DNA of 64,000 nucleotides from a virus. Lineage: Duplodnaviria; Heunggongvirae; Uroviricota; Caudoviricetes. The translations under genes were made by a program, and so were the position numbers. Below, one piece after another: positions 7,934 to 55,097 of the stretch; position 1 is the first letter of the stretch, and every line of letters starts with the position of its first letter. Under the pieces are notes generated by a model. That model had not been told where the DNA came from. It ran no database searches and saw nothing but the letters and a program-made list of their open reading frames with translations. The DNA is taken from the IMG/VR virus record IMGVR_UViG_3300013005_000022, positions 54,443 to 118,442 of that record. One strand, written 5' to 3'.

Positions 7934-8149
7934 ATGGCATCAGAATTTCATACAACTCGTAGAGGATCTAAATTTTACGATTTCGATCTTCCAAAATTAG
8001 CCGAGCAATTAGAAAGAATTGCAAACGCTTTAGAAAGCAAAAATAAAATCGAAGAAAAACGATTGGTTCTAGAACAGAAAAAATTACTTAAAGAAAGCAA
8101 AGATGCCAGAATTACCGGAAGTAGCGAGGACAGCAACGAGTCTGAATGA
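7934..8149 (+). CDS. hypothetical protein (charged, coiled-coil-like)
   Basis: 71-aa ORF; 3' end overlaps the Fpg-like gene start. Confidence 0.4.
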   Translation: MASEFHTTRRGSKFYDFDLPKLAEQLERIANALESKNKIEEKRLVLEQKKLLKESKDARITGSSEDSNESE

Positions 8150-24442: not shown

Positions 24443-24443
24443 T

Positions 24444-25058: not shown

Positions 25059-25080
25059 ATAACAAAATACAACAATATTA

Positions 25081-25962: not shown

Positions 25963-25963
25963 C

Positions 25964-38282: not shown

Positions 38283-39029
38283 ATGGCTAAAAGAAGAAAA
38301 AGTTACCAAGAGGAAGAGCAAGATTATCAAGAAATAATCAATCACTTCCAACCAAATCAACCCATTCTTGAAAAGTACAAAATTGAAATTAAACCAAAAA
38401 GTGAAAATCAAAAGATTCTCGTAGATCTAATTAGAGACAAAGAGATAGTAATATGTTCGGGTCCAGCTGGTACTGGTAAAACTTTCTTAGCTTGCGTCCA
38501 AGCTCTTAAGTTATTCAAATCAGAATTTAAGTATCGTAAAATAGTTCTTGTAAAATCTGTTACAACTCTTAAAGATGAAGAAATAGGTTTCCTAAAAGGA
38601 ACTATGGAAGAGAAAATGGAACCTTTCGTTTATTCATTCTTTCATAACTTTGAGAAGATTCTTCCTAAAAGCGTTATCAAAAATTTAAAAGATTCTCAAT
38701 CAATTGAAGTTCTTCCTCTTGCATATATGCGAGGAATTAACCTAGATAATTGTATTGTAATTATAGACGAATGTCAAAACATTACACCCGACAATATGAG
38801 AACTATTATGACTCGTATTGGTGAAAATTGTAAGATGATATTCTTGGGAGATGAAGGTCAAATCGATTTAAAGAACAAAAGAAACTCTTCTCTCCAATTA
38901 ATCATGGAGAAATTTGCTGATGTTCCGGCTATTGGTTGTATTCGTTTCACTGAAGAAGACACCGTTAGAAATCCTTTAATCAGAAAAATTGAAGAGGTAT
39001 TTAGATCTATTTCTAATCCTACTGCATAA
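38283..39029 (+). CDS. phoH: PhoH-like ATPase
   Basis: Walker A GPAGTGKTFLA; PhoH-like length and conserved downstream segments (LPLAYMRG, IIDECQN). Confidence 0.85.
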   Translation: MAKRRKSYQEEEQDYQEIINHFQPNQPILEKYKIEIKPKSENQKILVDLIRDKEIVICSGPAGTGKTFLACVQALKLFKSEFKYRKIVLVKSVTTLKDEEIGFLKGTMEEKMEPFVYSFFHNFEKILPKSVIKNLKDSQSIEVLPLAYMRGINLDNCIVIIDECQNITPDNMRTIMTRIGENCKMIFLGDEGQIDLKNKRNSSLQLIMEKFADVPAIGCIRFTEEDTVRNPLIRKIEEVFRSISNPTA

Positions 39030-39036
39030 AATAAGT

Positions 39037-39564
39037 ATGAAAAGAAAAAAGCCACGTATATTCTTAACATCTGATACTTTCTTCGGCAGACATCTGTCTG
39101 CTGTTGAAAGAAGATTCGAGAATACCGAAGATATGGAAGATTCTATGATTGATTTATGGAATGAGACCGTTGAAGAGACCGATGTGGTATATCATTTAGG
39201 AAATTTTGCATGGGATCCTATTTCAGCTGAGACTGCTATTAATTTCTTAAATGGTAAAATTTATTTTGTTGCTGGTAAACACGATACATTTCTTTCAACT
39301 ATATCTCTAATTAAAACCGGAGTTCACACTTTATATACCAATCAAGTTGGTACTCTACCAAGCCAAAATCTTATATTCACTCATTGGCCGATGTTAGATT
39401 GGCCTGGAAAAGAAGATGGATTTATGCAATTCCATGCCGGCGATTCGCCTACAAATATTGAAGAACAACGAATAAATGTTAATTGTAAGAATTGGGGTTT
39501 AAAGCCGGTTGATCTTGATACTATTCTAGATATCGTTAAAATAACAAAACATAGTAAAAAATGA
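39037..39564 (+). CDS. calcineurin-like metallophosphoesterase paralog with degenerate metal-binding motifs
   Basis: IFLTSDTFFG (DxH-like), YHLGNF (GD-like), FVAGKHD (GNHD-like), FTHWP (GH-like); start moved to ATG 39037. Confidence 0.45.
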   Translation: MKRKKPRIFLTSDTFFGRHLSAVERRFENTEDMEDSMIDLWNETVEETDVVYHLGNFAWDPISAETAINFLNGKIYFVAGKHDTFLSTISLIKTGVHTLYTNQVGTLPSQNLIFTHWPMLDWPGKEDGFMQFHAGDSPTNIEEQRINVNCKNWGLKPVDLDTILDIVKITKHSKK

Positions 39565-42498: not shown

Positions 42499-43098
42499 AT
42501 GGCTAAAAACGAATCATTAAAGGAATTAGGAATCGAGTTTAAAGAAACTAGATCAGAACGAGTATTCACCGATTTATATCATCGTCTTAAACCAGGGTTA
42601 ACAAATTACGTATTTCAAATCGTAAAAGATTACGATATGTCTAATCATATTGTTTCTAGCGTAATGTCTGAGGTTTATAACAAAATCGATAAATACGATC
42701 CTAAATGGCATATCTCTACATGGATTTATCGTATTGCATATACACATGCTTGTGGTTATCTTCGAGCTAAAAAAGTTCAACGAACGGTTTCTCTATCCGC
42801 ATTCGATAACGATGAAAATCGCAATCGTCTACATAAACTAGAATTCGATTCTATCGAAGATCACCGTGATGCTATTGAAAAACGTGAAGATGAAGATGCG
42901 GAAAAAGCTCATGTTAATTATCTTCGTACAATCGTCGATAATTTACCAATTGAATATCGTGAAGTGGTTGTGGAAAAATTCTACAATGATTTAAAGTATG
43001 ATGAAATCGCTGCCAAGCTAAATATTCCACTTCATACCGTAAAAAACCGAATTTCACGAGGTAAACGAATCATTCAAGAGGAACTCACCAAAAAATAA
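42499..43098 (+). CDS. RNA polymerase sigma factor, sigma-70 family (ECF-like)
   Basis: Region 2-like YRIAYTHACGYLR; region 4 HTH DLKYDEIAAKLNIPLHTVKNRISRGKRIIQEEL. Confidence 0.75.
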   Translation: MAKNESLKELGIEFKETRSERVFTDLYHRLKPGLTNYVFQIVKDYDMSNHIVSSVMSEVYNKIDKYDPKWHISTWIYRIAYTHACGYLRAKKVQRTVSLSAFDNDENRNRLHKLEFDSIEDHRDAIEKREDEDAEKAHVNYLRTIVDNLPIEYREVVVEKFYNDLKYDEIAAKLNIPLHTVKNRISRGKRIIQEELTKK

Positions 43099-43221: not shown

Positions 43222-45144
43222 ATGAAGAAATTGCTTAAATCATTTTTACTGATGATTATTTTAGCTCTTCCGATTCTTACATTTGCACAATCCGGTCCAC
43301 CGGCACCAAGTGCAGGAATTTGGGCTTTAATAGATACTAACTATACAGTTGGTACTTCAACAGTAGGAATCTCTCAGGCTAAAATCACTCTAAAAAATAC
43401 AACGGCTACTTTATATACCGGTGTTCAATTTAGAGTATTTTACGACAAAAATGCTTTCTCATCAGCATCAGTTGCTTTGTTAGGATCTACTACAAATTTA
43501 TATTTACAATCAGTAGATAACAACACAGCAGGTTATGTGACTATCTCTTTAGTTTATACAGGAAGTAGTTCTGCATATACATTAGCCGATGGAGAAAGAT
43601 TTGAACTTACGTTTAACCACGTATCTCCGGCAGCATTCTATGCTTTGCCATCGATCAGTGCATTAACTTGGACTGGTTCTGCTACTTACACTCAAGTGGC
43701 TGCTGAACAAAGTGGTTTAGATACCACTTTAAGTTTACACAGCTATGGTGGAAACTGGTTACGTCCAGAACTTGATTACCATGGTACATTTACTAACGTA
43801 ACTGGTACTGGTGCAAAAAACCTTACTCTTGCATTAGAGAAAAAAGTTAAGATTGGTGGAACATGGGGAACTCATGCAACATACATAACAGACATTAATG
43901 GAGACTTTGCATTCTCAGAAATTATCGATACAACATATTATGATGTTCGTTTAGCAGTTCAAGGAGATTCCATGACTGTTGGTAACGTTATTTCAACTGC
44001 CGATGCTCAGTTAATTAATCAATGGGTTCTTGGTGGAGCTACTCCTACAGGATTCGATTTTTATACCGGAGATGTTAATGGATCTAATGGAATATCGATC
44101 ACTGATGCTTATGGAGTATTTGGAAGAATCGCTGGTAGATTCTCTACTTGGCCTAACTCAGTTAAAGATGTTAAATTCTTTACCGCTGCTGAATATGCAA
44201 CTATTACCGGAACACCATCAACAAACTTTACTGGATCTATCCCCGGAGTTACCAACTTCTATTTTGATATTCTACCTGGAGCACCTGATAGTGTAACTTA
44301 TTATGTATGTGTACCTGGTGATGCAAATGGAACCGGTTATAATATGGCTCGTTTAACCCCAATTGACGTGGTAATCAATCCACCAGCTGGAACTCCTGCA
44401 CAACAAGAAAACGTAGTAGATATGAAAGTTGAATATGACTTTCCTACATCTTCTATGGAAGTTAGATTACCTTCATTATCAGTTAAAGAAGGAAACCTGG
44501 TAGAACTTCCTGTTAGTGTACATACAAATGGTCAAGATATTTCTGCTTTACAACTTTCAATGTTATACGATCAAACTCTTTTACAATTCAAAGATGTTCA
44601 AAACTCACCAAAAGCAATGTTTTGGATGTCTTCTATCAATCCTACTGGAGGTATTGTAGAATGGTCTGGATATGACCCATCAGCGAACAAATCATATATG
44701 ATACCTGATGGTTATGAAGTATTCACTCTTCGTTTTTTGGCTCTTAAACCTCAAAATGAATGGAATCAATCACCTTTATATACAACTAGAAAATTTTCAG
44801 GAAATTCAAATTCTAAAGACATGACAATTACTCCAGCTAATGGAATTCTAATTGTTGCTAAAATGGCAAATGTTGGTGGAATCTTAGACGAAAGAGAAAT
44901 GACAGTTTTTCCTAATCCTACTACCGGAGAAATCACGGTAGAGTTTAGTGTAAAACAGACTGGTCCAGTTAAGTTATATATAGTAGGTATGAACGGAGTT
45001 ATATCTCATGTAATTCTTGATAGAGATATGCCAGAAGGTGAATACATTTATACTTCTAATATCAATCATCTTACTCAAGGAATATATGTGGCTTCATTAC
45101 AAGCTAAAAATCAAAAAAACTCTGCTAAAATAATTAAAAACTAA
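43222..45144 (+). CDS. secreted protein with type IX secretion system C-terminal sorting domain
   Basis: Signal peptide MKKLLKSFLLMIILALPILTFAQ; C-terminal ~80 aa VFPNPTTGEITVEF...VKLYIVGMNGVI...LTQGIYVASLQAKN..SAKIIKN matches the T9SS type-A CTD pattern. Confidence 0.75.
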   Translation: MKKLLKSFLLMIILALPILTFAQSGPPAPSAGIWALIDTNYTVGTSTVGISQAKITLKNTTATLYTGVQFRVFYDKNAFSSASVALLGSTTNLYLQSVDNNTAGYVTISLVYTGSSSAYTLADGERFELTFNHVSPAAFYALPSISALTWTGSATYTQVAAEQSGLDTTLSLHSYGGNWLRPELDYHGTFTNVTGTGAKNLTLALEKKVKIGGTWGTHATYITDINGDFAFSEIIDTTYYDVRLAVQGDSMTVGNVISTADAQLINQWVLGGATPTGFDFYTGDVNGSNGISITDAYGVFGRIAGRFSTWPNSVKDVKFFTAAEYATITGTPSTNFTGSIPGVTNFYFDILPGAPDSVTYYVCVPGDANGTGYNMARLTPIDVVINPPAGTPAQQENVVDMKVEYDFPTSSMEVRLPSLSVKEGNLVELPVSVHTNGQDISALQLSMLYDQTLLQFKDVQNSPKAMFWMSSINPTGGIVEWSGYDPSANKSYMIPDGYEVFTLRFLALKPQNEWNQSPLYTTRKFSGNSNSKDMTITPANGILIVAKMANVGGILDEREMTVFPNPTTGEITVEFSVKQTGPVKLYIVGMNGVISHVILDRDMPEGEYIYTSNINHLTQGIYVASLQAKNQKNSAKIIKN

Positions 45145-45470
45145 TGTCAGAAGAAACACAAGATCACAATGACGGAACTTGGTCAGGTCTAAAGAAAACT
45201 CTTATTGGAACAATTTCTACAGCAGTACTTGCTGGAGGAACTTGGTTAACCACTACTTTATTTAATGGCGGTAGTGACGATAAAGAAGAAACTAAAACTG
45301 AACAGGCTGCTCCAGCTCCTGTTATTGTTAACGTTCAACAAAATCAAGAGAACACTCAAAAACAACAAAACAATGGTGGTACCAACACTATCATCAGAGA
45401 AAGAGTTATAGAGAAACCTGTTGAAAAGAAAGAAGAAAAGAAAAAAGAATCTGAGGATGCTCCTTGGTAA
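45144..45470 (+). CDS. membrane-anchored protein with disordered Lys/Glu-rich tail
   Basis: One transmembrane helix (LIGTISTAVLAGGTWLTTTLF); start overlaps upstream stop. Confidence 0.45.
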   Translation: MSEETQDHNDGTWSGLKKTLIGTISTAVLAGGTWLTTTLFNGGSDDKEETKTEQAAPAPVIVNVQQNQENTQKQQNNGGTNTIIRERVIEKPVEKKEEKKKESEDAPW

Positions 45471-45489
45471 ACTAAAAACAAATAAAAAA

Positions 45490-45780
45490 ATGGCTAAATT
45501 ACAAAACACCAAACCAAACTTCTTTAAGCGAATGTTTATGGATGATAATGATATTAATGAAAAATCTATCGTTGGATTCTGTGCATTTTTAGTAATGTGT
45601 ATTGCATTTGGAGTTGATATTTACACCGGAATTAAAGGTATGCCTTTTGAGATTAACGAATTCATTTTTGATGGATTTATGGTTATCACTTTAGGTGCAT
45701 TCGGTATTGCTTCAGTTGACAAATACATAACTGGAAAGAAAGGCGTAAGTTCATCTAATGATGAGACTCCAGTAGAATAA
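45490..45780 (+). CDS. small membrane protein
   Basis: Start moved to the internal ATG after the upstream stop; two hydrophobic helices. Confidence 0.45.
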   Translation: MAKLQNTKPNFFKRMFMDDNDINEKSIVGFCAFLVMCIAFGVDIYTGIKGMPFEINEFIFDGFMVITLGAFGIASVDKYITGKKGVSSSNDETPVE

Positions 45781-45793
45781 AAAAATAAAAAAC

Positions 45794-46513
45794 ATGAAAG
45801 CACTTATAACTTTTATAATGCTGATATTTTTTGCTCAAACTAGTATTGCTCAGATTGGCACCGTCAAGTCTGAGCAATACCAAGCAGAGTTTGAGAAGAA
45901 GCAATCACTCGATGCTTTACCAGAATATACAGACACAATCAAGATTCCTATTCAGATTCTTAAAATCGGAATCAATGAAGAGTTATACGAAATGTATCCT
46001 GAATTGAAAGATAAAAGAGTTGGATTAGGAGTAACTAATATTGTTCTTGAATATCTCGAATACACCAATCGTTTCGTTTTTACTGAAGATAAACTTGAAA
46101 TTAAAGAGCGAATGGTTCAACAATTTAAAGCATCTGATAAAGGCTTTACTGAAAATAAAATCGACGGTAGAGGAAAGATTAAGTTAGCTAAATACTTTGT
46201 GTATATAGAAGTCTATGATTTTTCGGTATCCGATGATGAAGTTGTAAAGATTAACGGAGAATCCAAGACTACTCAGATAACTCGTTTAGGATTACAAGTT
46301 AAATTCGTAGATGCTGAAACCGGAGAGATTATTATGGGATCTGGACTCGGAGAAGCTACTACCGTTAAGACTGCTACTATTTTAGATGGGGTTGACGATA
46401 GTGATATTAAATTCAATCAATCACATATTGGTATAACTACCAAGAAATCTCTTGAAACGGCATCTTCTAGAATCGTTGCAAGAATGATAAAAAAAGGAAT
46501 TTTCAAATCGTAA
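45794..46513 (+). CDS. secreted hypothetical protein
   Basis: Signal peptide MKALITFIMLIFFAQTSIAQ. Confidence 0.55.
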   Translation: MKALITFIMLIFFAQTSIAQIGTVKSEQYQAEFEKKQSLDALPEYTDTIKIPIQILKIGINEELYEMYPELKDKRVGLGVTNIVLEYLEYTNRFVFTEDKLEIKERMVQQFKASDKGFTENKIDGRGKIKLAKYFVYIEVYDFSVSDDEVVKINGESKTTQITRLGLQVKFVDAETGEIIMGSGLGEATTVKTATILDGVDDSDIKFNQSHIGITTKKSLETASSRIVARMIKKGIFKS

Positions 46514-48208
46514 ATGTATGTTAGAAAATTCATATTCTTTTTTGTATTTTTGTTTATTACAATTGCAAGTTACGGTCAGACATTCAATTACTCGTATACT
46601 GACCCTTGTACTGGTGTAATAAAAACTATGCAGGTTCCATCAAATGGAATAACCATAACTTATTATGGACAAGTAAACACATTCCAACCATCAGATTTCT
46701 ATAATGGTGGTTTTGAGAGTTGGGCTCAAGGAGTCTATTCTTCATTTGGTAACAACAATCCATGTGCATCAGTGGTAGGTCTTCCTACTGGAATTAATAT
46801 TGCACAAAACACTGCAACTAATTTCTTAAGTATAGTAAATTCATTATCAGCTATTAGTGATTTGGCTGCATTGAATGGAGCTACCAATATTCTATCTGGA
46901 GTAGGTAGTGTATCAAATGCAAGTGGAAAAAAGGAAGAAAATAAAAAAGGAGGAAATGGTACACCAAATACTAACTCTGGAGGAAGTACACAAAATTCTG
47001 GAGGAAGCTCTACTACTCCAGGAACCTCAGGAAATCAAGGAACTTCTTCTGGAAGCTCAGGATCTTCTACTACACAAGGATCAAACAATACAGGTTCATC
47101 TCAATCACCTCAGACAGGAGGTCAATCGTCTCAGTCACCTGTAGGATCTCAACAAAATCAAACCGGAACAAATGGAAACAGTAGCAACAGTAGTACCAAT
47201 AGTAATTCTAGTGGGACTAGTAATACTAGCGGTAATACAAACAATACTCAACCTTCAACTGGGTCAAATCAAACCCAAACCGGAGGAACACAAACTGGCA
47301 ATACATCGTCTGGAAGCACAAATGCAAATAGCGGCAATGCTAATCAAGGTGGGAGTGGAACCTCAAGCGGCAATGGATCGAGCGGCCAAAATAGTAGCGG
47401 ATCATCTTCGTCCGGAGGATCTTCTGAAGGAAGTGGAACAGGAAATCAGCAAGGAGGAAGTGAAGCAACAAAAAGCGAAGAAGGCGGCAAAACGAACCTA
47501 GTTGGTGGATCGGTTGCATCTATAGGTAATTCAACTAATTCTGGAAGTGGATCTGCATCGAGCGAAAGTAGAAGACCAACTATACTTGCTAGTAGTGATT
47601 TGGTTGGATTTAATTTTAAAGATTCTGATGTTAGCAAAGGAGGTAAATTTACCGGAGGTTATACATCATTAAGATGGGATGGACAAAGATCTCACGGATT
47701 TTTAGTCGATTATACAACCGCTCTTAAAGGACCTAATGTTACTGCATTCTATGCATATATCAAGAAGAAAAGAATTGATTTGATATCAACTACTCTTACA
47801 TTAGGATTCGATAGAAAAACTTCAGTATATGGAACTTTGGCCGTAGGTCAAATGTGGAACATTGATAAAAAGAAAAAACTTAAAGCCGTTTACATGTTAA
47901 CCGGATCCTTTGGTAGTGTATACGAAGAAGCTTTCGTTGGAACCGCTGCAATTGCCGGTGTAATGTACGATTTAAAAGTTTCAAAACGAATAGATATTAA
48001 ACTAATGGGGCTATATGTCTATGCTCCTTATGTTAGTTATTATAATGACATACTACTAAAATCTCCTCATGTAGTTCTTCCTATCATTGGAACTAACATT
48101 GGACTTACGAAGAGATTTAAGTTAAACATAAATGGTGGTGGCGCTTGGGCACTAAACGAAAATGCACTGAACTACACCATAATGATGGGTACTAGATTTT
48201 TATTATGA
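46514..48208 (+). CDS. secreted protein: signal peptide, ~230-aa Ser/Gly/Thr/Asn/Gln low-complexity region, C-terminal outer-membrane beta-barrel-like domain
   Basis: Signal peptide ...ITIASYGQ; long low-complexity region; C-terminal alternating-hydrophobic strands ending ...GTRFLL (aromatic terminus typical of outer-membrane barrels). Confidence 0.55.
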   Translation: MYVRKFIFFFVFLFITIASYGQTFNYSYTDPCTGVIKTMQVPSNGITITYYGQVNTFQPSDFYNGGFESWAQGVYSSFGNNNPCASVVGLPTGINIAQNTATNFLSIVNSLSAISDLAALNGATNILSGVGSVSNASGKKEENKKGGNGTPNTNSGGSTQNSGGSSTTPGTSGNQGTSSGSSGSSTTQGSNNTGSSQSPQTGGQSSQSPVGSQQNQTGTNGNSSNSSTNSNSSGTSNTSGNTNNTQPSTGSNQTQTGGTQTGNTSSGSTNANSGNANQGGSGTSSGNGSSGQNSSGSSSSGGSSEGSGTGNQQGGSEATKSEEGGKTNLVGGSVASIGNSTNSGSGSASSESRRPTILASSDLVGFNFKDSDVSKGGKFTGGYTSLRWDGQRSHGFLVDYTTALKGPNVTAFYAYIKKKRIDLISTTLTLGFDRKTSVYGTLAVGQMWNIDKKKKLKAVYMLTGSFGSVYEEAFVGTAAIAGVMYDLKVSKRIDIKLMGLYVYAPYVSYYNDILLKSPHVVLPIIGTNIGLTKRFKLNINGGGAWALNENALNYTIMMGTRFLL

Positions 48209-49878
48209 GAAAGTTTATCACCACACTAATTGCCGTTTTGGTAACATGTGCTACATATGCACAAACGTTTACATATTCAGGCTACATCTATAACGCAAAT
48301 GGTACCGGAGCAGTAAATGTTCCAGTAAAGTTGTATAAGAGAACAACTCCAGTATTGACTGGATTCACATCTCAAACAAATTATAACGGTCACTCATATT
48401 ACCGATCAACTAGTAGTATGACTTGGACTGCTGCAAAAACTGCATGTGAAAATATGAACGGTCACTTAGCTACCGTATCTAATGCAGCGGAAAATAATTT
48501 CCTATTCAATACTTGGCCATCTGGTTGGATTGGTTATTATCAAGATAAGGTTGGTGGATATACTTATTCAGAACCGGCCGGTGGATATCGTTGGACTGAA
48601 AGTAAAGTAACTTCCGGATTAGCATCGGATTATGATGTTTCATCTTATACATCAGGATCTACTTTAACTGATATCAAATCAAGTATTAATGCCACTCTTT
48701 ATAATACTCCATCATACTCTAGTACAGGAGGAAAGTACTTAGCATTTAATGGATCTAATCAATATGCAATTACCGGCGATTTAGCTTCTAAATTCTCTTC
48801 AACTGCAATATCAGTAGTTACATGGATTTATCCTACAGGAAATGGTGTTATTGCATCAGAATTAAATATTGCAAGTCCTACATCCGGATGGCATGAATCT
48901 ATAATAGAAATCACTGGGTCTAATACTCTTCGAATCGGTCTTTGGAACGGAACTGGAATTACTCAATTAAGCACTGCTATTACTCTTAATACCTGGAATA
49001 TGGTTTGTATTACATATGATGGAACTACAATGAGAGGATATCTAAATAATGTGAGTTTTGGTAGTGTTAACTTTTCTCGTCAGGCAGCCTTTTTACATAG
49101 TGGTAATGGACAACAACATTTTGCATTCGGTTTAAGTGATGCAACCCATATGGGATCTGGTGCTTATGGTTCTTTTAGATTAGGACTTATTCAATTTTTC
49201 GATAGAGCAATTACCGTTGATGAAATTGATAGAACTTTCAATTTTTATGCATACCGTTATCGAACAAACCAATATACAAATTGGAATCCCGGAGAACCTA
49301 ATGATGCAGGAACCGAAGACTATGCTCAATTTGTTGGTGGTGGAAAATGGAATGATCTTCCGAATATGTCTCTTCCTTATGTGATTGAATTTGATTATGT
49401 TGTTGGATTTACTTCATGGGTTTTACATCAAACAGTTTATACGAATTCATCAGGATTCTATTCATTTTCTCAGGCATCAAATCCATCAGTTGAATGGTAT
49501 ATACAAATTGATGCACCTACTCCTGTAACTATTCATCAAACTTCGGATTTAAGTTCAATAGGAAATATTGTATTAGGTAGTACTACCAAGAAATCTTTAC
49601 ATTGGAATATGTTCGATGTGAATAACGATGGAAATATAACAGTATCCGATGCATACTATGTGAGTGGAAAGAAAAATGGAATATTTGCCAGTTGGATAGG
49701 ATCTCAAAGATCTGCTCTATATACGATTGCTCAATTTAATGCACTTAATTCTGGAACAACTAATTTAAAGGCAACATATCCAGGAGTAAGTTCTTTTACG
49801 ATATCTACTCCAGTGAGTGGCGGATCTACAAATTATTATCTAATAGCTCCAGGTTATGCTGGACAAGTAACATATTAA
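48205..49878 (+). CDS. secreted C-type lectin-like protein with large inserted domain
   Basis: Signal peptide ...VTCATYAQ; CTLD N-half WTAAKTACENMNGHLATVSNAAENNFL..WIGYYQD and C-half WNPGEPNDAGTEDYAQFVGGGKWNDLP separated by a ~230-aa insertion. Confidence 0.6.
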   Translation: MRKFITTLIAVLVTCATYAQTFTYSGYIYNANGTGAVNVPVKLYKRTTPVLTGFTSQTNYNGHSYYRSTSSMTWTAAKTACENMNGHLATVSNAAENNFLFNTWPSGWIGYYQDKVGGYTYSEPAGGYRWTESKVTSGLASDYDVSSYTSGSTLTDIKSSINATLYNTPSYSSTGGKYLAFNGSNQYAITGDLASKFSSTAISVVTWIYPTGNGVIASELNIASPTSGWHESIIEITGSNTLRIGLWNGTGITQLSTAITLNTWNMVCITYDGTTMRGYLNNVSFGSVNFSRQAAFLHSGNGQQHFAFGLSDATHMGSGAYGSFRLGLIQFFDRAITVDEIDRTFNFYAYRYRTNQYTNWNPGEPNDAGTEDYAQFVGGGKWNDLPNMSLPYVIEFDYVVGFTSWVLHQTVYTNSSGFYSFSQASNPSVEWYIQIDAPTPVTIHQTSDLSSIGNIVLGSTTKKSLHWNMFDVNNDGNITVSDAYYVSGKKNGIFASWIGSQRSALYTIAQFNALNSGTTNLKATYPGVSSFTISTPVSGGSTNYYLIAPGYAGQVTY

Positions 49879-49883
49879 ATATC

Positions 49884-50339
49884 ATGAAAAAACTACTTCT
49901 TTTATTACTACTTTTGCCAATCCTATCATTTGGACAAATCAATCCATGTGTTCATGTGGATTCGATATACTCAACCGCCAAATTTAAGGAAATGGGAAAT
50001 CGAGATATTCGTTTCGGTATCAAACAAATGGCTGAAGATATTCTATCTGAAAAATACTGCATCAATGCATCATCGCCGGATGTAGATATTGAGGTGTTCT
50101 TCTTCGGTTTGCCTAGAACTACAATTAGAATAGTTGGTGTTGAAAAGACTAATCAGATAACACAAGTTGGGATTCGTATTTATTATAACGGTTCAAAATA
50201 TGAAGCATACGGAGAATCCGATACTGAAATTAGAACTATAATGTTAGAGGTTGCAGAAGGTCAAATGCCATTCTCTAAAATGACAATATCCAATGCAATA
50301 AAAAAAGCACTAGTATCATGCGTATCACAAATGCCTTAA
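49884..50339 (+). CDS. secreted hypothetical protein
   Basis: Signal peptide MKKLLLLLLLLPILSFGQ. Confidence 0.5.
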   Translation: MKKLLLLLLLLPILSFGQINPCVHVDSIYSTAKFKEMGNRDIRFGIKQMAEDILSEKYCINASSPDVDIEVFFFGLPRTTIRIVGVEKTNQITQVGIRIYYNGSKYEAYGESDTEIRTIMLEVAEGQMPFSKMTISNAIKKALVSCVSQMP

Positions 50340-50782
50340 TCTTCTTTCTTCTTCTTTTACCTACATTAACATTTGGACAAATTACAGTTCAAGATGTTGG
50401 TGATAGATGGAAGGCTAAAGTTGATTCGGCAATTGAATTAATAAAGAAGACAGATACCATATCGTATCAAATTCTGATTGAGAATTGTAAAGATGTTGAA
50501 TTTATTATTGGTAAGTACTCAACTACAAAACCTCCTTATACGATTGCAATAACCACTAAAGACATGAACCTAAATTCAATCAATAATATTGCTGCGGTTT
50601 TGGTTCATGAATCCTATCATCTTTTTATATACAATAACAAGATACGTTACTCTATTAACGAAGAAGAGGCAGTTTGTTATCAAAGAGAATATGATTTCCT
50701 ATGTAAGCTATCCGATGTTGAAGATTGGTTATTCCTTAATGCCATGAATAACATCATTCTTTATCGAACTCCGAAGAAGTAA
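50318..50782 (+). CDS. secreted small protein with HExxH motif (zincin-like candidate)
   Basis: Signal peptide ...LPTLTFGQ; VLVHESYHLF contains HExxH. Confidence 0.45.
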   Translation: MRITNALIFFLLLLPTLTFGQITVQDVGDRWKAKVDSAIELIKKTDTISYQILIENCKDVEFIIGKYSTTKPPYTIAITTKDMNLNSINNIAAVLVHESYHLFIYNNKIRYSINEEEAVCYQREYDFLCKLSDVEDWLFLNAMNNIILYRTPKK

Positions 50783-52117: not shown

Positions 52118-52220
52118 TTGTTAATAAACTACCAAAAATTGTTAATAACTTTTTGACCCGAGATTTTTTAATCTCGGGTTTTTGTTTTATATTTGTTATA
52201 TCAAATTAAATAATAAACAT
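52118..52220 (+). promoter_or_regulatory. conserved promoter cassette with hairpin, copy 8 of 8 (duplicated upstream box)
   Basis: TTGTTAATAAACT + TTGTTAATAACTTT; hairpin GACCCGAGATTTTTTAATCTCGGGTTTTTG; TATATTTGTTATATCAAATTAAATA. Confidence 0.65.
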
Positions 52221-52747: not shown

Positions 52748-53392
52748 ATGAAATTAGAAATTCCAAAAGGCGTAAACGTTTGGTTTACTTCAGATACACA
52801 TTACAATCACAAAAACATTTGTCGAGGTGTAAGTACATGGGAATCTGGAAGAGGAACTCGAGATTTTGCAAATCTGCAAAAGATGAACGAGGAAATCGTT
52901 AACCAAATCAACTCAAAGGTAATGGAAAATGATATTCTATTTCATCTTGGTGATTGGTCATTTGGTGGATTCGAATCTATTACTGAATTCCGTAATCGTA
53001 TTGTTTGCAAAAACATTCACTTGATTTTAGGTAATCATGACCATCACATCGAACACAATGTAGATGATGTTCAGGATTTATTTGCTTCGGTTAATCAATA
53101 CTTGAAATTTCAAATCAATATTAATCGAACCGCAAATAGCGTAGATAAACACAACTTCGTACTTTGTCATTATCCTCTTGGATCTTGGCACGATATGGCA
53201 ATGGGTGTAATACATCTACATGGTCACGTTCACCTTCCGTCTCATCTAAAAATAGGCGATGGAAAAGCAATGGATGTTGGTGTTGATGGAAATAACATGG
53301 CAGTATACTCATTACAAGAAATCGTAAACATAATGAAGAAACAACCAATTGCTTCTTTGCGTTTACCAAAAGATCATCACGAACAAAAATAA
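52748..53392 (+). CDS. calcineurin-like metallophosphoesterase
   Basis: Complete motif set: FTSDTHYNH (DxH), HLGDWSFGG (GD), LILGNHDHH (GNHD/E), HLHGHVHLPSH (GH, GHxH). Confidence 0.8.
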   Translation: MKLEIPKGVNVWFTSDTHYNHKNICRGVSTWESGRGTRDFANLQKMNEEIVNQINSKVMENDILFHLGDWSFGGFESITEFRNRIVCKNIHLILGNHDHHIEHNVDDVQDLFASVNQYLKFQININRTANSVDKHNFVLCHYPLGSWHDMAMGVIHLHGHVHLPSHLKIGDGKAMDVGVDGNNMAVYSLQEIVNIMKKQPIASLRLPKDHHEQK

Positions 53393-53404
53393 CATATAAA
53401 AAAT

Positions 53405-53812
53405 ATGAAAAAACTAATCTTACTTCGCGGATTACCAGGTGCTGGAAAATCAACATTAGCTAAAACATTTGAAGGTGCTAGTCACTTTGAAGCTGATATG
53501 TACTTTATGGATGAGAATTCAAATTACAACTTTGATGCTTCTAAATTAAGAGATGCTCATGCATGGTGCCAAAATTCAGTTAACGCCGCAATGACACTTA
53601 ACCATACTACTGGTGCTAATGAAACCATCGTGGTTTCTAATACCTTTACTCAAGAATGGGAAATGGAAGCATATACAAAAATGGCAGATCAATGGGGTTA
53701 TCGAGTATTCTCTTTAATCGTCGAGAATCGTCATGGTGGAGTTAATGCACATGGAGTACCAGAAGATAAATTGCAAATGATGAAAGATCGTTTTGAACTT
53801 AAATTAATATAA
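53405..53812 (+). CDS. P-loop kinase (polynucleotide-kinase-like)
   Basis: MKKLILLRGLPGAGKSTLAKTF resembles the T4 Pnk kinase N-terminus (MKKIILTIGCPGSGKSTWA); 135 aa. Confidence 0.55.
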   Translation: MKKLILLRGLPGAGKSTLAKTFEGASHFEADMYFMDENSNYNFDASKLRDAHAWCQNSVNAAMTLNHTTGANETIVVSNTFTQEWEMEAYTKMADQWGYRVFSLIVENRHGGVNAHGVPEDKLQMMKDRFELKLI

Positions 53813-53813
53813 C

Positions 53814-54032
53814 ATGAAAAATGACAGACACATTTGGGAAGGTTGGACGGTTCAATCTTTTATTGATGAATTACAACCTGTGTTTAATATGATAATCACT
53901 AATAGATCTCATATTAAACCTTTCAAAACCAAAGACGAACTTAAAACTTGGTGTAAGGAAAATCAACCTTATTACAAGAAACATATACCAGAAGTATATC
54001 AACATTTTTTAAGCTTAACTTCGTTAGACTAA
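53814..54032 (+). CDS. hypothetical protein
   Basis: 72-aa ORF. Confidence 0.4.
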   Translation: MKNDRHIWEGWTVQSFIDELQPVFNMIITNRSHIKPFKTKDELKTWCKENQPYYKKHIPEVYQHFLSLTSLD

Positions 54033-54033
54033 T

Positions 54034-54294
54034 ATGAAAAATATTGATATTGAATTAGATCGAATAAATGTTCGTTCTGAACAAATCCTTGATCGTCTAA
54101 AAGAAATTCAAGGAGAACGAACAACCATCAAATTCAAACTAAAAAACAATTTGATTGATTTCGTTTTAGGTGAGCTACAAATACAAACATTAGATTATGA
54201 AGCTCTTCTTTTGGTTGAGGAAACTGCTGAATTAGAATCCGATATTGTATTCGTTGAATTAATCGATGAATTAGATATTGATATACAAAGATAA
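54034..54294 (+). CDS. hypothetical acidic protein
   Basis: 86-aa ORF. Confidence 0.4.
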   Translation: MKNIDIELDRINVRSEQILDRLKEIQGERTTIKFKLKNNLIDFVLGELQIQTLDYEALLLVEETAELESDIVFVELIDELDIDIQR

Positions 54295-54303
54295 ACAAAT
54301 AAT

Positions 54304-54516
54304 ATGTCAGATATAACAAAATGCCCAGGTACCGATTGTCCTATAAAAGATGATTGTTATCGTTTCAATGCTGAATCAGGTTTCCGTCAATCATGGTTTA
54401 CTAAAGCTCCTGGAGAATTAAACGAAGGTAAATTTAGTTGCGATATGTATTGGGGTGAACATTCTGAAGGGATTTGGAATCAACTTATAGAAATAACAAA
54501 AGGAAACAAATCATGA
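54304..54516 (+). CDS. hypothetical Cys-containing small protein
   Basis: 70-aa ORF with CPGTDCP...C motif. Confidence 0.4.
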   Translation: MSDITKCPGTDCPIKDDCYRFNAESGFRQSWFTKAPGELNEGKFSCDMYWGEHSEGIWNQLIEITKGNKS

Positions 54517-55097
54517 AATTAAGAAACCAATTGAAGTACTTCTTCGAGAACTTTGAATTTTTAGGAGCGTACAACTCACCATTCCGATCACCAAAACCTC
54601 GTTTGTATATAGGAAAGGTTGCTATTGGTACTCCTTACTTCTTTCCTCGAAGATGGGTTAGGTATACTCATGATGATGCGGTTAAAGCAACGATTGATTC
54701 GATGAATGATCGTAAAAAGATAACACAATCTTTTGATACTTGGTATAACTCATATAGACGATATCGCAAAGCGATTCCTAAAAAAATTGGATTTGATTTT
54801 GTTCCTATGGGTTGGAAAACGAAATGGTCAGATACCGATTATCGTTTTGAATGGTCTCCGGTTTGGTCATTTGTTTTTTTCAAATGGCAAATTGCAATTA
54901 CTTTTATTGCACCAGAAATGCATCACTATTGGGAATGTTGGTTATTCTATACACGAAACACCGACAAAACTAAATCGATTGAAGAAAGAATTGCTCAATG
55001 TAGAGAAGAATTTCCGTGTATATGGAGCACCACAATAGAAGGAGAAACAACCAAAACATGTTATTGGGATAAGATCTTAAAAGATAAATGGTTGTAG
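54513..55097 (+). CDS. hypothetical protein
   Basis: Start moved to the ATG overlapping the upstream stop (MKLRNQ...). Confidence 0.5.
   Translation: MKLRNQLKYFFENFEFLGAYNSPFRSPKPRLYIGKVAIGTPYFFPRRWVRYTHDDAVKATIDSMNDRKKITQSFDTWYNSYRRYRKAIPKKIGFDFVPMGWKTKWSDTDYRFEWSPVWSFVFFKWQIAITFIAPEMHHYWECWLFYTRNTDKTKSIEERIAQCREEFPCIWSTTIEGETTKTCYWDKILKDKWL

What the first reader, a model, noticed from the sequence alone, without database searches (positions are those of the whole stretch)
52748..53812. Metallophosphoesterase + P-loop kinase pair (Pnkp-like end-healing?), with two further phosphoesterase paralogs and HAD phosphatases
A complete-motif calcineurin-like phosphoesterase is followed by a small kinase whose N-terminus resembles T4 polynucleotide kinase. 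Bacterial Pnkp proteins fuse exactly these two activities (kinase and metallophosphoesterase) with a ligase for RNA repair. Additional paralogs lie at 56000-56662 (intact motifs) and 39037-39564 (degenerate motifs, possibly a non-catalytic binder), plus HAD-like phosphatases at 5529-6002 and 55110-55673. Alternatively, the phosphoesterases could degrade cyclic-nucleotide immune signals (an anti-CBASS/Pycsar-type role).
Basis: partly seen in the sequence, partly recalled or inferred. Interest (0 to 1): 0.55.

Follow-up and report, generated by a model that had tools for sequence, protein, structure and literature searches.

The report
Phage two-gene RNA end-healing module
A phage of Bacteroidota carries, side by side, a metal-dependent phosphoesterase and a miniature T4-like polynucleotide kinase that most likely clean up broken RNA ends so they can be rejoined. 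This is a widespread version of a repair system already known in outline, though these particular enzymes have not been tested in the laboratory.

Summary
52748-53392 encodes a motif-complete calcineurin-like metallophosphoesterase (MPE1). Twelve bases downstream, 53405-53812 encodes a 135-aa P-loop kinase.

**Kinase identity.** Its only significant solved relatives, by profile and by predicted fold, are the T4 and Clostridium polynucleotide 5'-kinases.

**Gene linkage.** Kinase, MPE1 family and Rnl1 RNA ligase are mutually linked in viral contigs:
- 54-62% of dereplicated loci pair kinase and MPE1 within 1.6 kb.
- 60% of Rnl1 loci carry MPE1 within 3 kb.

**Further context evidence.**
- In a syntenic relative, a T4-type HAD_PNKP phosphatase replaces the MPE beside the kinase.
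- All 17 long proteins among the 150 best kinase-family representatives are fusions: Rnl1 (6), HD (9), CNPase (1), Smr (1).

**Conclusion.** The pair is best read as a split-gene Pnkp analogue, with 5'-kinase and 2',3'/3'-phosphoesterase activities. It is probably co-transcribed with a HAD_SAK_2 phosphatase and a second MPE.

**Open points.** No RNA ligase lies in the roughly 82 kb examined, and no enzyme has been assayed. The anti-CBASS alternative has no support for MPE1.

Phage RNA-repair toolkits of this type are already catalogued computationally (Iyer et al. 2021), so this is a new member of a known kind.

The parts
52155..52180 (+). Intrinsic terminator-like hairpin (11-bp stem followed by a T-run). 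It ends the upstream transcription unit.
   Evidence: sequence
52185..52210 (+). Copy of a 26-nt promoter-like motif, T[AT]TTATATTTGT[AT]ATATCAAATTAAA. It contains the Bacteroidota -7 element TAnnTTTG and is the likely start of the unit holding the pair.
   Evidence: 6 copies, all on the + strand, against 0 expected in 100 shuffles. Assigning the TAnnTTTG element to Bacteroidota promoters rests on my own knowledge.
52748..53392 (+). MPE1: 214-aa calcineurin-like metallophosphoesterase with all metal-ligand motifs intact and a family-specific invariant C-terminal D209-H210-H211 tail. Inferred to be a 2',3'-cyclic phosphodiesterase / 3'-phosphatase for end healing.
   Evidence: linkage to the kinase and Rnl1; nearest solved homolog is Aquifex aq_1665 (1xm7), of unknown function
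53405..53812 (+). Minimal 135-aa P-loop kinase of the T4 Pnk type. Features: Walker A G9-x2-G12-x-G14-K15-S16-T17, candidate general base D31, S78-N79-T80, and E107-N108-R109-H110. Inferred to be a 5'-OH polynucleotide kinase.
53814..54294 (+). Two small ORFs (72 aa and 86 aa) of unknown function. They are conserved at 86% and 94% in the closest relative, L101, in the same position.
54513..55097 (+). 194-aa protein of unknown function with no family match. It is conserved (63%) at the same position in L101.
55110..55673 (+). HAD_SAK_2 phosphatase, the standalone 'Swiss-army-knife' RNA-repair HAD. Its DxD motif (D7-N-D9) is intact. Probably a linear 3'/2'-phosphate phosphatase.
   Evidence: Pfam PF18143 E=7e-22; role as described in PMC7824862; 85% identical in L101
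56000..56662 (+). MPE2: 220-aa motif-intact metallophosphoesterase of a different family (phrog_1649, weakly YfcE-like). It is a full-length match to the PADLOC candidate defence family PDC-S10. Its role is unresolved.
39037..39564 (+). Degenerate MPE1-family paralog directly after a PhoH-like ATPase gene (38283-39029). Four or more metal-ligand positions are replaced. It belongs to a conserved pseudo-enzyme subfamily with the motif 'LGNFAWDP'. It is not in the same operon.

Best explanation
The two genes form a split-gene analogue of polynucleotide kinase-phosphatase (Pnkp), carried by a phage that infects Bacteroidota.

**Proposed mechanism.** Host ribonucleases such as anticodon nucleases, HEPN RNases or toxin RNases cut tRNA or other RNA. 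The cuts leave 2',3'-cyclic-phosphate (or 3'-phosphate) and 5'-OH ends.
- The metallophosphoesterase (52748-53392) opens and removes the 3'-terminal phosphate to give a 3'-OH.
- The 135-aa T4-Pnk-like kinase (53405-53812) transfers the gamma-phosphate of an NTP to the 5'-OH.
- The healed 3'-OH/5'-PO4 ends become substrates for an ATP-dependent RNA ligase. In many relatives this ligase is an Rnl1 encoded next to the pair.

**Operon.** The pair is probably co-transcribed from a promoter-like motif at about 52.2 kb. The same unit appears to hold a standalone HAD_SAK_2 phosphatase and a second metallophosphoesterase, giving a multi-phosphoesterase end-processing operon.

**Shown.** Domain identities, intact catalytic motifs, fold similarity of the kinase to polynucleotide kinases, conserved gene linkage, fusions, and the partner swap.

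**Inferred.** The substrates (RNA ends), the division of labour among the phosphoesterases, and the identity of the ligase, which was not found in this genome segment.
For: **1. Kinase identity.**
- The family profile hits only the T4 Pnk kinase domain significantly in the PDB (E=4.5e-5, residues 1-105). D31 aligns with the T4 general base D35, and S78-N79-T80 aligns with T4 S84-D85-T86.
- The AF2 model (pLDDT 86.7) has T4 Pnk as its top 15 Foldseek hits (E about 5e-7, TM 0.72-0.74). C. thermocellum Pnk follows at ranks 16-20; PSTK, Pnkp1 and mammalian PNKP appear lower, interspersed with other P-loop kinases.

**2. Rosetta stone.** All 17 proteins of at least 297 aa among the 150 best family representatives (E<=4e-32, out of 1.84 billion) are fusions. 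Partners are Rnl1 (6), HD phosphohydrolase (9, the HD-Pnk architecture), 2H CNPase (1) and an Smr protein (1).

**3. Linkage.**
- Kinase-anchored, 59 dereplicated viral loci: motif-intact MPE1 within 1.6 kb in 54%, adjacent in 25%, Rnl1 within 8 kb in 41%.
- MPE1-anchored, 52 loci: kinase within 1.6 kb in 62%.
- Rnl1-anchored, 45 loci, +-3 kb: MPE1 in 60%, kinase in 47%, both in 33%.
- Cultured phages: Aeromonas phiA009 has MPE-Rnl1-kinase as consecutive genes. Pseudomonas Amme-3 has HD-MPE-x-x-Rnl1-kinase.

**4. Non-orthologous displacement.** Contig L007 is syntenic with window 45144-50764 (up to 81% aa) and its kinase is 76% identical. It has a HAD_PNKP phosphatase (PF25109) 4 nt upstream of the kinase where the window has the MPE, and Rnl1 lies 5 kb downstream.

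**5. Operon context.** A terminator at 52155-52180 is followed by the promoter-like motif at 52185-52210. No + strand terminator follows up to 58500. HAD_SAK_2 lies at 55110. The order is conserved in the 254-kb relative L101.

**6. Genome-wide toolkit.** A TROVE/Ro60-like protein, SmpB and a CCA-adding enzyme lie at 1.3-4.5 kb. A cREC_REC protein lies about 1 kb past the window end. These match the phage RNA-repair repertoire described in PMC7824862.
Against: - No enzyme of either family has been assayed, as far as the searched literature shows.
- No Rnl1, Rnl2 or RtcB was detected in the window or in about 8 kb upstream and about 10 kb downstream. The only ligase-like gene (332-844) sits in a DNA-replication context in relatives.
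- 37% of kinase loci, including the closest relative L101, also lack Rnl1 within 8 kb. The pair may therefore act without a dedicated ligase.
- The kinase lacks the T4 acceptor-binding Arg38 (F34 is invariant) and has Asn where T4 has the essential Asp85.
- The MPE's nearest solved homolog has no known function. Its AF2 model found no significant structural match.
- T4 Pnkp and HD-Pnk also act on DNA ends, so RNA specificity is not established.
- The locus sets are the 80 best matches per query, not random samples. The chance baseline is a rough estimate.
Confidence: 0.65

Rival explanations
1. DNA end processing. The pair restores 3'-OH/5'-PO4 at DNA strand breaks, for example after base-excision or nuclease damage, for sealing by the phage DNA ligase. 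It would then belong to replication and repair rather than RNA repair.
For: - T4 Pnkp and Runella HD-Pnk act on DNA as well as RNA ends. HD-Pnk is described as a DNA/RNA end-healing enzyme (PMC6097658).
- The window encodes an Fpg/Nei glycosylase-lyase (8103-8921), whose products carry 3'-phosphate ends. It also encodes a 5'-3' exonuclease and a ligase-type NTase (332-844).
- In Amme-3 and phiA009 a DNA ligase lies 1-3 kb from the module.
Against: - The conserved neighbours and fusion partners are Rnl1-type RNA ligases, not DNA ligases.
- The pair is 44-52 kb from the window's replication and repair genes.
- It is co-located with HAD_SAK_2, a family defined by RNA-repair contexts.
Confidence: 0.12
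2. Ligase-independent RNA-end remodelling. The pair does not feed a ligase. It erases 2',3'-cyclic-phosphate / 5'-OH termini that act as danger signals for CARF/RtcR-type sensors, or it converts ends so that fragments can be handled by the CCA-adding enzyme, the Ro60-like protein or 5'-P-dependent exonucleases.
For: - No RNA ligase was found in about 82 kb of this genome, nor within 8 kb of the pair in L101. 37% of kinase loci likewise lack Rnl1.
- The genome encodes a CCA-adding enzyme, a TROVE protein, SmpB and a cRec protein.
- The kinase resembles the P-loop module of a CARF-PD-(D/E)XK type III CRISPR accessory protein (E=1e-12).
- PMC7824862 raises the idea that cyclic-phosphate RNA ends could act as signals.
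Against: - The unseen remainder of the genome may hold Rnl1. It lies 5 kb or more away in L007.
- A 5'-kinase is not needed merely to remove a cyclic-phosphate signal.
- Linkage with Rnl1 is the dominant pattern across the family.
Confidence: 0.1
3. Anti-signalling phosphodiesterase. MPE1, and/or the other phosphoesterases, degrade cyclic (oligo)nucleotide immune messengers of CBASS, Pycsar or type III CRISPR.
For: - The MPE superfamily includes cyclic-nucleotide phosphodiesterases. MPE2 shows weak YfcE and cAMP-phosphodiesterase similarity below the curated cutoffs.
- PMC7824862 predicts such a role for a different calcineurin-like family, the T5 A1 orthologs.
Against: - MPE1 is linked to a polynucleotide kinase and to Rnl1, and is interchangeable with HAD_PNKP. 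None of this is expected for a messenger-degrading enzyme.
- MPE1 has no match in PADLOC.
- By my own knowledge, the characterised anti-CBASS and anti-Pycsar enzymes belong to the 2H (Acb1) and MBL (Apyc1) folds, not the MPE fold.
Confidence: 0.06
4. Nucleotide metabolism. The kinase is a nucleoside or (d)NMP kinase and the MPE is a nucleotidase, working in dNTP pool remodelling or NAD+ salvage.
For: - AAA_33 is a broad kinase family. There is a weak dTMP-kinase hit (E=0.008, far below the cutoff).
- In Amme-3 the kinase is followed by Prs and Nampt NAD-salvage genes.
- The window has an NT5C nucleotidase and a Nudix gene elsewhere.
Against: - Profile and fold searches rank polynucleotide kinases first. 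Nucleotide kinases rank lower with worse TM scores.
- The identifiable fusion partners are RNA ligase and RNA-end phosphoesterases (16 of 17 long proteins), plus one Smr protein. None is a nucleotide-metabolism enzyme.
Confidence: 0.04

Closest known systems
Bacteriophage T4 Pnkp (PseT) + Rnl1 tRNA repair pathway
   Same: - It has the same logic: a phage-encoded 5'-kinase and a 3'-phosphatase heal nuclease-cut tRNA for sealing by Rnl1.
- The window kinase's closest solved relative by sequence profile and by fold is the T4 Pnk kinase domain.
- Relatives of the window pair sit next to Rnl1 (PF09511).
   Different: - T4 fuses the kinase to a DxDxT HAD phosphatase in one 301-aa protein. Here the kinase is a standalone 135-aa protein and the adjacent phosphatase is a binuclear metallophosphoesterase.
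- T4 Arg38 and Asp85 are not conserved; the window has F34 and N79.
- No Rnl1 was found in this genome segment.
Bacterial Pnkp (Clostridium thermocellum Pnkp/Hen1) and Pnkp1-Rnl-Hen1
   Same: It combines a P-loop polynucleotide kinase with a metallophosphoesterase that removes 2',3'-cyclic and 3'-phosphates (PMC3675462 and PMC2190708 abstracts). CthPnk ranks 16-20 in the kinase fold search.
   Different: - Those are single polypeptides (kinase-MPE-ligase) or defined heterohexamers with the Hen1 methyltransferase.
- Here the genes are separate, with no ligase domain and no Hen1 detected.
- The window MPE profile does not reach CthPnkp or lambda phosphatase in the PDB; it finds only aq_1665.
Runella slithyformis HD-Pnk (bifunctional 2',3'-phosphoesterase HD domain + 5'-OH polynucleotide kinase)
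   Same: - Nine close representatives of the window's kinase family are HD-kinase or kinase-HD fusions, the architecture described for HD-Pnk (PMC6097658).
- Like HD-Pnk, the module is often encoded beside an ATP-dependent ligase.
- Pseudomonas phage Amme-3 has HD, MPE, Rnl1 and the kinase in one cluster.
   Different: - The window has an MPE, not an HD domain, and it is a separate gene.
- I could not obtain the Runella sequence to test direct orthology.
Phage RNA-repair toolkits predicted by comparative genomics (Burroughs & Aravind 2016; Iyer et al. 2021, PMC7824862)
   Same: These papers describe phage ATP-grasp RNA ligases acting with polynucleotide kinases and phosphatases. [quoted passage not shown] The same repertoire includes cRec, TROVE, CCA-adding enzyme and PhoH. 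Every one of these components is present in or next to this window.
   Different: - The description is a one-sentence mention, with no analysis of the specific MPE family (aq_1665-like, phrog_547) or of the 135-aa kinase family (phrog_2071).
- The quantified three-way linkage, the MPE/HAD_PNKP swap and the ligase-less arrangement are not given in the passages I could read.

Membership tests
T4-type 5'-OH polynucleotide kinase (P-loop Pnk) | Walker A motif GxxGxGK[ST] at the N-terminus | tested here: met
   G9-L-P-G12-A-G14-K15-S16-T17. G9, G12, G14, K15, S16 and T17 are invariant in 28 homologs.
T4-type 5'-OH polynucleotide kinase (P-loop Pnk) | Catalytic Asp general base about 20 residues after the P-loop Lys (T4 D35, Cth D38) | tested here: met
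   D31 is invariant and aligns with T4 D35 in the profile-PDB alignment.
T4-type 5'-OH polynucleotide kinase (P-loop Pnk) | Acceptor-binding Arg38 and essential Asp85 of T4 Pnk | tested here: not met
   The aligned positions are F34 (invariant) and N79 (invariant S78-N79-T80). The essentiality of T4 R38 and D85 rests on my own knowledge of the T4 literature.
T4-type 5'-OH polynucleotide kinase (P-loop Pnk) | Lid arginines contacting the NTP phosphates (T4 R122/R126) | tested here: inconclusive
   Invariant R109 (in the E-N-R-H motif) and R129 are candidates. The profile alignment stops at residue 105, and the model's lowest-confidence 10-residue blocks are residues 111-120 and 131-135.
T4-type 5'-OH polynucleotide kinase (P-loop Pnk) | Fold closest to polynucleotide kinases rather than to other P-loop kinases | tested here: met
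   The top 15 Foldseek hits are T4 Pnk (TM 0.72-0.74), followed by CthPnk at ranks 16-20. Adenylate, UMP-CMP and APS kinases score TM 0.45-0.57.
T4-type 5'-OH polynucleotide kinase (P-loop Pnk) | Phosphoryl transfer from NTP to the 5'-OH of an oligonucleotide | not testable with these tools
   This needs a biochemical assay.
Calcineurin-like metallophosphoesterase superfamily | Motifs DxH / GD / GNH[DE] / H / GH / GHxH that bind a binuclear metal centre | tested here: met
   MPE1 has D16xH18, G68D69, G95N96H97D98, H141 and H158-G-H160-V-H162, all invariant in 30 homologs. MPE2 is also intact. 39037-39564 fails, having lost four or more ligand positions.
Bacterial Pnkp (kinase-MPE-ligase, Hen1-associated) | Kinase, phosphatase and ligase modules in one polypeptide | tested here: not met
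   The two genes are separate, with a 12-nt spacer, and there is no ligase domain.
Bacterial Pnkp (kinase-MPE-ligase, Hen1-associated) | Phosphatase module of the lambda-phosphatase-like MPE family | tested here: not met
   The MPE1 family profile against the PDB (E<=1) finds only Aquifex aq_1665 (1xm7). It finds no CthPnkp or lambda-Pase chain.
Bacterial Pnkp (kinase-MPE-ligase, Hen1-associated) | Partner Hen1 RNA 2'-O-methyltransferase gene | tested here: inconclusive
   No methyltransferase hit appeared in any Pfam or PHROG scan of window ORFs. Not every small ORF was scanned and the genome is incomplete.
T4 Pnkp (kinase fused to HAD phosphatase) | DxDxT acyl-phosphatase domain fused C-terminally to the kinase | tested here: not met
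   The kinase ends at residue 135. The HAD proteins of the window are separate genes 1.3 kb and 47 kb away. Relative L007 has a separate HAD_PNKP gene adjacent to the kinase.
Phage Rnl1-centred heal-and-seal RNA repair cassette | Rnl1-type RNA ligase (PF09511) encoded with the healing enzymes | tested here: not met
   tblastn with five Rnl1 sequences and a local Rnl1 HMM find nothing in the window or in L091/L094/L095. It is present in 41% of related kinase loci. The rest of the genome is unseen.
Anti-CBASS / anti-Pycsar nucleases (Acb1, Apyc1) | 2H phosphodiesterase fold (Acb1) or metallo-beta-lactamase fold (Apyc1) | tested here: not met
   MPE1 and MPE2 match only Metallophos families. The fold assignments of Acb1 and Apyc1 are from my own knowledge.

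The most novel reading that the evidence does not exclude
In this phage lineage the MPE-kinase pair works without any dedicated RNA ligase. The window genome and its 254-kb relative both lack Rnl1 near the pair. Instead the pair would act with HAD_SAK_2, the PDC-S10-type MPE, cRec, the CCA-adding enzyme and a Ro60/TROVE protein with a candidate Y-like RNA. Together these would form a ligase-independent RNA-end surveillance system. It would erase 2',3'-cyclic-phosphate / 5'-OH termini, either as danger signals or as blocks to 3'-end rebuilding, rather than rejoining the fragments.
Probability: 0.12. Interest if true: 0.55.

Novelty: new member of a known kind. Interest (0 to 1): 0.3.

Why it matters
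If the inference holds, the phrog_2071 kinase family and the phrog_547 MPE family are a common but biochemically untested way for phages to undo host RNA-cleaving defences. Homologs occur in 623 and 1,276 GenBank phage records respectively, and in hundreds of viral metagenome contigs.

- Most of these genes are annotated only as 'ATPase', 'AAA domain protein', 'phosphoesterase' or 'hypothetical'. The linkage data here would justify re-annotation.
- The 135-aa kinase would be among the smallest polynucleotide kinases, which could make it useful as a reagent.
- The MPE/HAD_PNKP/HD interchange next to one conserved kinase is a clear natural example of non-orthologous displacement in a counter-defence pathway.

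It does not open a new kind of biology, because the pathway logic has been known since T4 and the toolkit has been surveyed computationally.

Tried and rejected
- **Megablast of the region against GenBank phages:** no match, so no annotated near-identical genome could be used.
- **Single-sequence PDB searches:** both proteins gave only non-significant hits. Profiles were needed.
- **AF2 model of MPE1:** pLDDT was 77.7, but Foldseek found no significant PDB match, not even its sequence homolog 1xm7. I judged the topology unreliable and used no structural argument for MPE1.
- **NCBIfam:** nothing above the curated cutoffs for MPE1, the kinase, HAD_SAK_2 or the degenerate MPE.
- **Search for an RNA ligase.**
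  - tblastn with five Rnl1 sequences, a local Rnl1 HMM, and Pfam/PHROG scans of about 50 window ORFs found only the 170-aa ligase-type NTase at 332-844.
  - I first considered this NTase as the sealing enzyme because it lies next to the TROVE/SmpB/CCA genes.
  - I then down-weighted it. In four relatives it sits among the clamp loader, 5'-3' exonuclease and Fpg genes, with the TROVE block absent. It is most likely a replicative DNA ligase subunit.
- **Genome walking.** The exact genome is not in IMG/VR. An exact 50-mer scan of metagenome contigs found nothing. The capped Rnl1 scan did not list the 254-kb relative, which is inconclusive.
- **Rfam:** no hits at gathering thresholds in the whole window. 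A permissive scan of 780-1320 found only terminator-like chance hits. ARAGORN found no tRNA or tmRNA.
- **Covariation test of the candidate ncRNA:** only 3 distinct sequences were available, with 1 compensatory pair, so the result is inconclusive.
- **Sigma-70 promoter scan:** fewer hits than in shuffles (17 against 39), so it is uninformative for a Bacteroidota phage.
- **Unavailable papers:** Burroughs & Aravind 2016 and Munir & Shuman 2017 are not held.
Full report
**What is there**

The window is a phage-like genome segment of about 33% G+C, with essentially every gene on the + strand. It has no near-identical relative in GenBank phages. Its closest cultured relatives at the protein level are Flavobacterium phage immuto and Cellulophaga phages. 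A phage protein carries a T9SS Por_Secre_tail domain, which points to a Bacteroidota host.

At the coordinates given there are two ORFs separated by 12 nt:

- **52748-53392 (214 aa).** This matches Pfam Metallophos (E=4e-8, above the curated cutoff) and phrog_547 (E=5e-45).
- **53405-53812 (135 aa).** This matches AAA_33 (E=1.9e-11), phrog_2071 'ATPase' (E=3e-39) and, more weakly, phrog_505 'polynucleotide kinase' (E=6e-8).

The alignment shows that MPE1 carries every canonical metallophosphoesterase motif: DxH, GD, GNHD, H and HGHxH. These are invariant across 30 homologs.

| Coordinates | Identity | Evidence |
|---|---|---|
| 56000-56662 | Motif-intact MPE of another family: 25% identity to MPE1, phrog_1649, full-length match to PADLOC candidate defence family PDC-S10 (E=8e-86) | |
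| 39037-39564 | Genuine MPE1-family paralog (phrog_547 E=9e-24) with at least four metal-ligand positions replaced | |
| 55110-55673 | HAD_SAK_2, the 'Swiss-army-knife' RNA-repair HAD (E=7e-22) | |
| 5529-6002 | NT5C-type deoxyribonucleotidase | |

The degenerate state of 39037-39564 is shared by its own homologs, which carry the motif 'LGNFAWDP'. It is therefore a conserved pseudo-enzyme subfamily rather than a decaying gene.

**Identity of the kinase**

A single-sequence search finds T4 Pnk only through the P-loop (E=0.19).

- A family profile makes the T4 Pnk kinase domain the only significant PDB hit (E=4.5e-5).
- That alignment spans residues 1-105. It places the invariant D31 on the T4 general base D35, and S78-N79-T80 on T4 S84-D85-T86.
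- A confident AF2 model (pLDDT 86.7, pTM 0.81) has T4 Pnk as its 15 best Foldseek hits (TM 0.72-0.74).
- C. thermocellum Pnk follows at ranks 16-20. The tRNA kinase PSTK, Pnkp1 and mammalian PNKP appear lower, interspersed with other P-loop kinases. Nucleotide kinases score clearly worse.

Two residues that matter in T4 (Arg38, Asp85) are not conserved; the window has F34 and N79. The protein is thus a distinct, very compact branch of the Pnk-like kinases, not a T4 Pnk orthologue.

**Fusion partners of the kinase family**

An exhaustive profile search of 1.84 billion representatives found 11,093 relatives. Among the best 150, all 17 proteins of 297 aa or more are fusions:

- six with Rnl1 RNA ligase, in both domain orders;
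- nine with an HD phosphohydrolase, in both orders;
- one with a 2H CNPase;
- one with an Smr protein.

Sixteen of the 17 partners supply another activity of RNA end-healing and sealing. The HD fusion is the architecture of the biochemically characterised Runella HD-Pnk end-healing enzyme, which has a 2',3'-phosphoesterase HD domain and a 5'-OH polynucleotide kinase domain (PMC6097658).

**Gene neighbourhoods in cultured phages and close relatives**

- In Aeromonas phage phiA009 the order is MPE (annotated hypothetical) - Rnl1 - kinase.
- In Pseudomonas phage Amme-3 the order is HD - MPE - two small genes - Rnl1 - kinase.
- In metagenomic relatives whose kinases are 71-73% identical to the window's, the order is MPE - small ORFs - kinase - Rnl1.

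**Quantified linkage**

I quantified the association with locally built profile HMMs on three sets of 80 viral-contig loci. Each set was dereplicated at 90% identity of the anchor protein.

| Anchor gene | Dereplicated loci | Result |
|---|---|---|
| Kinase | 59 | Motif-intact MPE1 within 1.6 kb in 54%, adjacent in 25%; intact MPE1 or HAD_PNKP in 61%; Rnl1 within 8 kb in 41% |
| MPE1 | 52 | Kinase within 1.6 kb in 62%, within 8 kb in 71% |
| Rnl1 (+-3 kb) | 45 | MPE1 in 60%, kinase in 47%, both in 33% |

For a single-copy gene in a genome of about 100 kb, I estimate the chance expectation at roughly 3-4%. This is an estimate, not a computed null.

These sets have limits. They are the best matches rather than random samples, ORF calling was naive, and the HMMs were built iteratively from few seeds.

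**Partner swap**

Contig L007 is syntenic with window 45144-50764 (up to 81% amino-acid identity) and its kinase is 76% identical.

- Where the window has the MPE, L007 has a HAD_PNKP phosphatase (PF25109) ending 4 nt before the kinase. Pfam names this family for the phosphatase domain of Pnkp-type enzymes.
- Rnl1 lies 5 kb downstream in L007.
- The same HAD_PNKP-kinase adjacency recurs in L019 and L081, and L053 has Rnl1-HAD_PNKP-kinase.
- Loci whose nearby MPE is the degenerate paralog (L071, L074, L075) also carry a HAD_PNKP 4-5 kb away.

This non-orthologous displacement is the best single argument that MPE1 performs the 3'-end-healing job.

**Operon and genome context**

- A strong terminator (52155-52180) is followed at once by a copy of a 26-nt motif.
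- That motif occurs six times in the window, always on the + strand, against none expected. It contains the Bacteroidota -7 promoter element.
- No + strand terminator follows before 58500.
- The unit therefore probably runs from two small variable ORFs through MPE1, the kinase, three small ORFs, a 194-aa protein of unknown function, HAD_SAK_2, a small membrane-like ORF and MPE2.
- The order MPE1-kinase-...-HAD_SAK_2-MPE2 is conserved in the closest relative, L101 from a 254-kb viral contig.
- In L101 the neighbours are 85-95% identical but the kinase is only 60% identical. This suggests allele exchange at that position.

Elsewhere the genome encodes a TROVE/Ro60-like protein, SmpB and a CCA-adding-type nucleotidyltransferase at 1.3-4.5 kb. 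A PhoH-like ATPase lies next to the degenerate MPE. A cREC_REC protein lies about 1 kb beyond the window end. This is essentially the full phage RNA-repair and ribosome-rescue repertoire listed by Iyer et al. 2021 (PMC7824862).

**What is missing**

No Rnl1, Rnl2 or RtcB was found in the window or in about 8 kb upstream and about 10 kb downstream of it.

- The only ligase-like gene is a length-conserved 170-aa NTase-only protein at 332-844. It has all five nucleotidyltransferase motifs and no OB domain.
- In four relatives it sits among the clamp loader, 5'-3' exonuclease and Fpg genes, with the TROVE block absent.
- It most likely belongs to DNA replication, not RNA sealing.
- 37% of kinase loci, and L101, likewise lack Rnl1 nearby.

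Either the ligase lies in the unseen remainder of the genome, as it lies 5 kb away in L007, or this lineage uses the healed ends differently. This is the main open point and the basis of the 'novel case'.

**Rival explanations**

- **DNA-end repair** is the strongest rival, because Pnkp-type enzymes act on DNA too and the phage has an Fpg/Nei lyase. However, the conserved partners are RNA ligases and an RNA-repair HAD.
- **Anti-CBASS/Pycsar** has no positive evidence for MPE1 and does not explain the kinase, Rnl1 or HAD_PNKP relationships. It remains conceivable for MPE2, whose family (PDC-S10) is only a candidate defence family and is also reported in freshwater jumbophages.
- **Nucleotide metabolism** is disfavoured by the fold ranking and by the fusion partners.

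**Comparison with what is known, and verdict**

The pair works like T4 Pnkp or bacterial Pnkp but is a member of neither family.

- The genes are separate and the phosphatase is not a HAD.
- There is no ligase domain and no Hen1 was seen.
- The MPE belongs to the uncharacterised aq_1665-like family rather than the lambda-phosphatase-like family.

The concept is already in the comparative-genomics literature, including one sentence noting that calcineurin-like domains sometimes replace HAD phosphatases in phage RNA repair. I therefore rate this a new member of a known kind, of modest interest (0.3).

Its value lies in the quantified three-way linkage, the partner swap, and the re-annotation it supports for two very common phage gene families. 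My confidence that the pair is a polynucleotide (most likely RNA) end-healing module is 0.65. None of the activities has been tested experimentally.

Noticed in passing
window 845-6400 (TROVE 1295-2881, SmpB 2933-3373, TrmB-like wHTH 3421-3771, CCA-adding-type NTase 3783-4514, NT5C 5529-6002): An 'RNA-maintenance island' sits between the mini-ligase and the 5'-3' exonuclease gene. In four relatives those two genes are neighbours and the island is absent. SmpB is present, but neither ARAGORN nor Rfam found a tmRNA in the window.
   Followed up: partly
window ~960-1257 (ORF-free gap 845-1294 upstream of the TROVE gene): This is a candidate structured ncRNA, possibly a Y-RNA-like partner of the Ro60/TROVE protein.
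- The gap has no ORF of 31 aa or more.
- The MFE z-score is -3.9, with 0 of 100 shuffles folding as well, and the region ends in a terminator hairpin at about 1229-1257.
- The terminator stem shows a compensatory C-G to U-A change in L261.
- A core of about 125 nt (CAAGTGGT[AT]AGC ... [AG]GTTACTTCG ... CATTCCCTTGA ... AGAGTTAC[AT]TCG) is conserved in L266, where TROVE is only 62% identical. There it lies between a tRNA cluster and TROVE.
- There is no Rfam match, and covariation with 3 sequences is inconclusive.
   Followed up: partly
window 332-844 (and the 161-aa ORF ending at 328, complete in L094:3193-3678): This is a 170-aa ATP-dependent ligase-type nucleotidyltransferase. It has motifs I (K26-W-R-G, an unusual Arg in place of the usual Asp), III, IIIa, IV and V, all invariant. 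The protein ends exactly at motif V, so there is no OB domain. The family is length-conserved at 170-171 aa across 21 clusters. It is always preceded by an uncharacterised protein of about 160-183 aa, which may be a separately encoded second subunit.
   Followed up: partly
window 3424, 6050, 26593, 40799, 42091, 52185 (+ strand): The 26-nt motif T[AT]TTATATTTGT[AT]ATATCAAATTAAA occurs six times, against 0 expected in 100 shuffles, always just upstream of a gene. It contains TAnnTTTG and is probably a phage promoter class recognised by the Bacteroidota host sigma factor or by the phage sigma factor encoded at 42499-43098.
   Followed up: partly
window 56000-56662: The second metallophosphoesterase is a full-length match (E=8e-86) to PADLOC PDC-S10, a single-gene candidate anti-phage defence family. 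Here it is encoded by a phage, inside the end-healing operon. PDC-S10 hits in jumbophages are also reported in a 2026 preprint.
   Followed up: partly
window 53405-53812: The kinase matches the N-terminal P-loop module of the PADLOC model 'CARF4--CARF_PDDEXK_AAA', a type III CRISPR accessory protein (E=1e-12). The same kinase module therefore also appears on the defence side, fused to a CARF sensor and a nuclease.
   Followed up: no
window 38283-39564; L071/L074/L075 ~6280-6810; L110 3-341: The degenerate MPE1 paralog forms a conserved pseudo-enzyme subfamily with the motif 'LGNFAWDP'. In the window it directly follows, and may overlap, a PhoH-like ATPase gene. In L071, L074 and L075 it lies 1.2 kb from the kinase.
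   Followed up: partly
L091:11495-11968 (about 1 kb past the window end, same genome): A cREC_REC (PF20274) protein is encoded here. Iyer et al. 2021 predict this domain to open 2',3'-cyclic phosphates and find it linked to RNA ligases. It would be another end-processing enzyme in this phage.
   Followed up: no
window 53405-53812 compared with L101:8658-9059: In the collinear 254-kb relative the flanking genes are 85-95% identical, but the kinase is only 60% identical and the 194-aa unknown protein 63%. In L007 the kinase is 76% identical while the phosphatase partner is a different fold. This points to cassette-level recombination within the module.
   Followed up: no
window 52748-53392, residues 200-214: The MPE1 family has an invariant C-terminal P200...D209-H210-H211 tail, plus invariant W147, C25 and C87. 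None of these belongs to the canonical MPE motifs. The DHH tail is kept even in the distant Pseudomonas and Aeromonas phage homologs. It may be an extra metal site or a partner-contact site.
   Followed up: no
window 43222-45144, 21083-26000 and 58198-63210: A phage-encoded cohesin plus T9SS sorting-domain protein is present. So are two large sugar-modification gene sets: an NDP-sugar dehydratase/aminotransferase/acetyltransferase-like run (read by eye from the translations) and a set of several glycosyltransferases, an epimerase and a DegT aminotransferase. These are possibly for host-surface or virion glycan modification.
   Followed up: no
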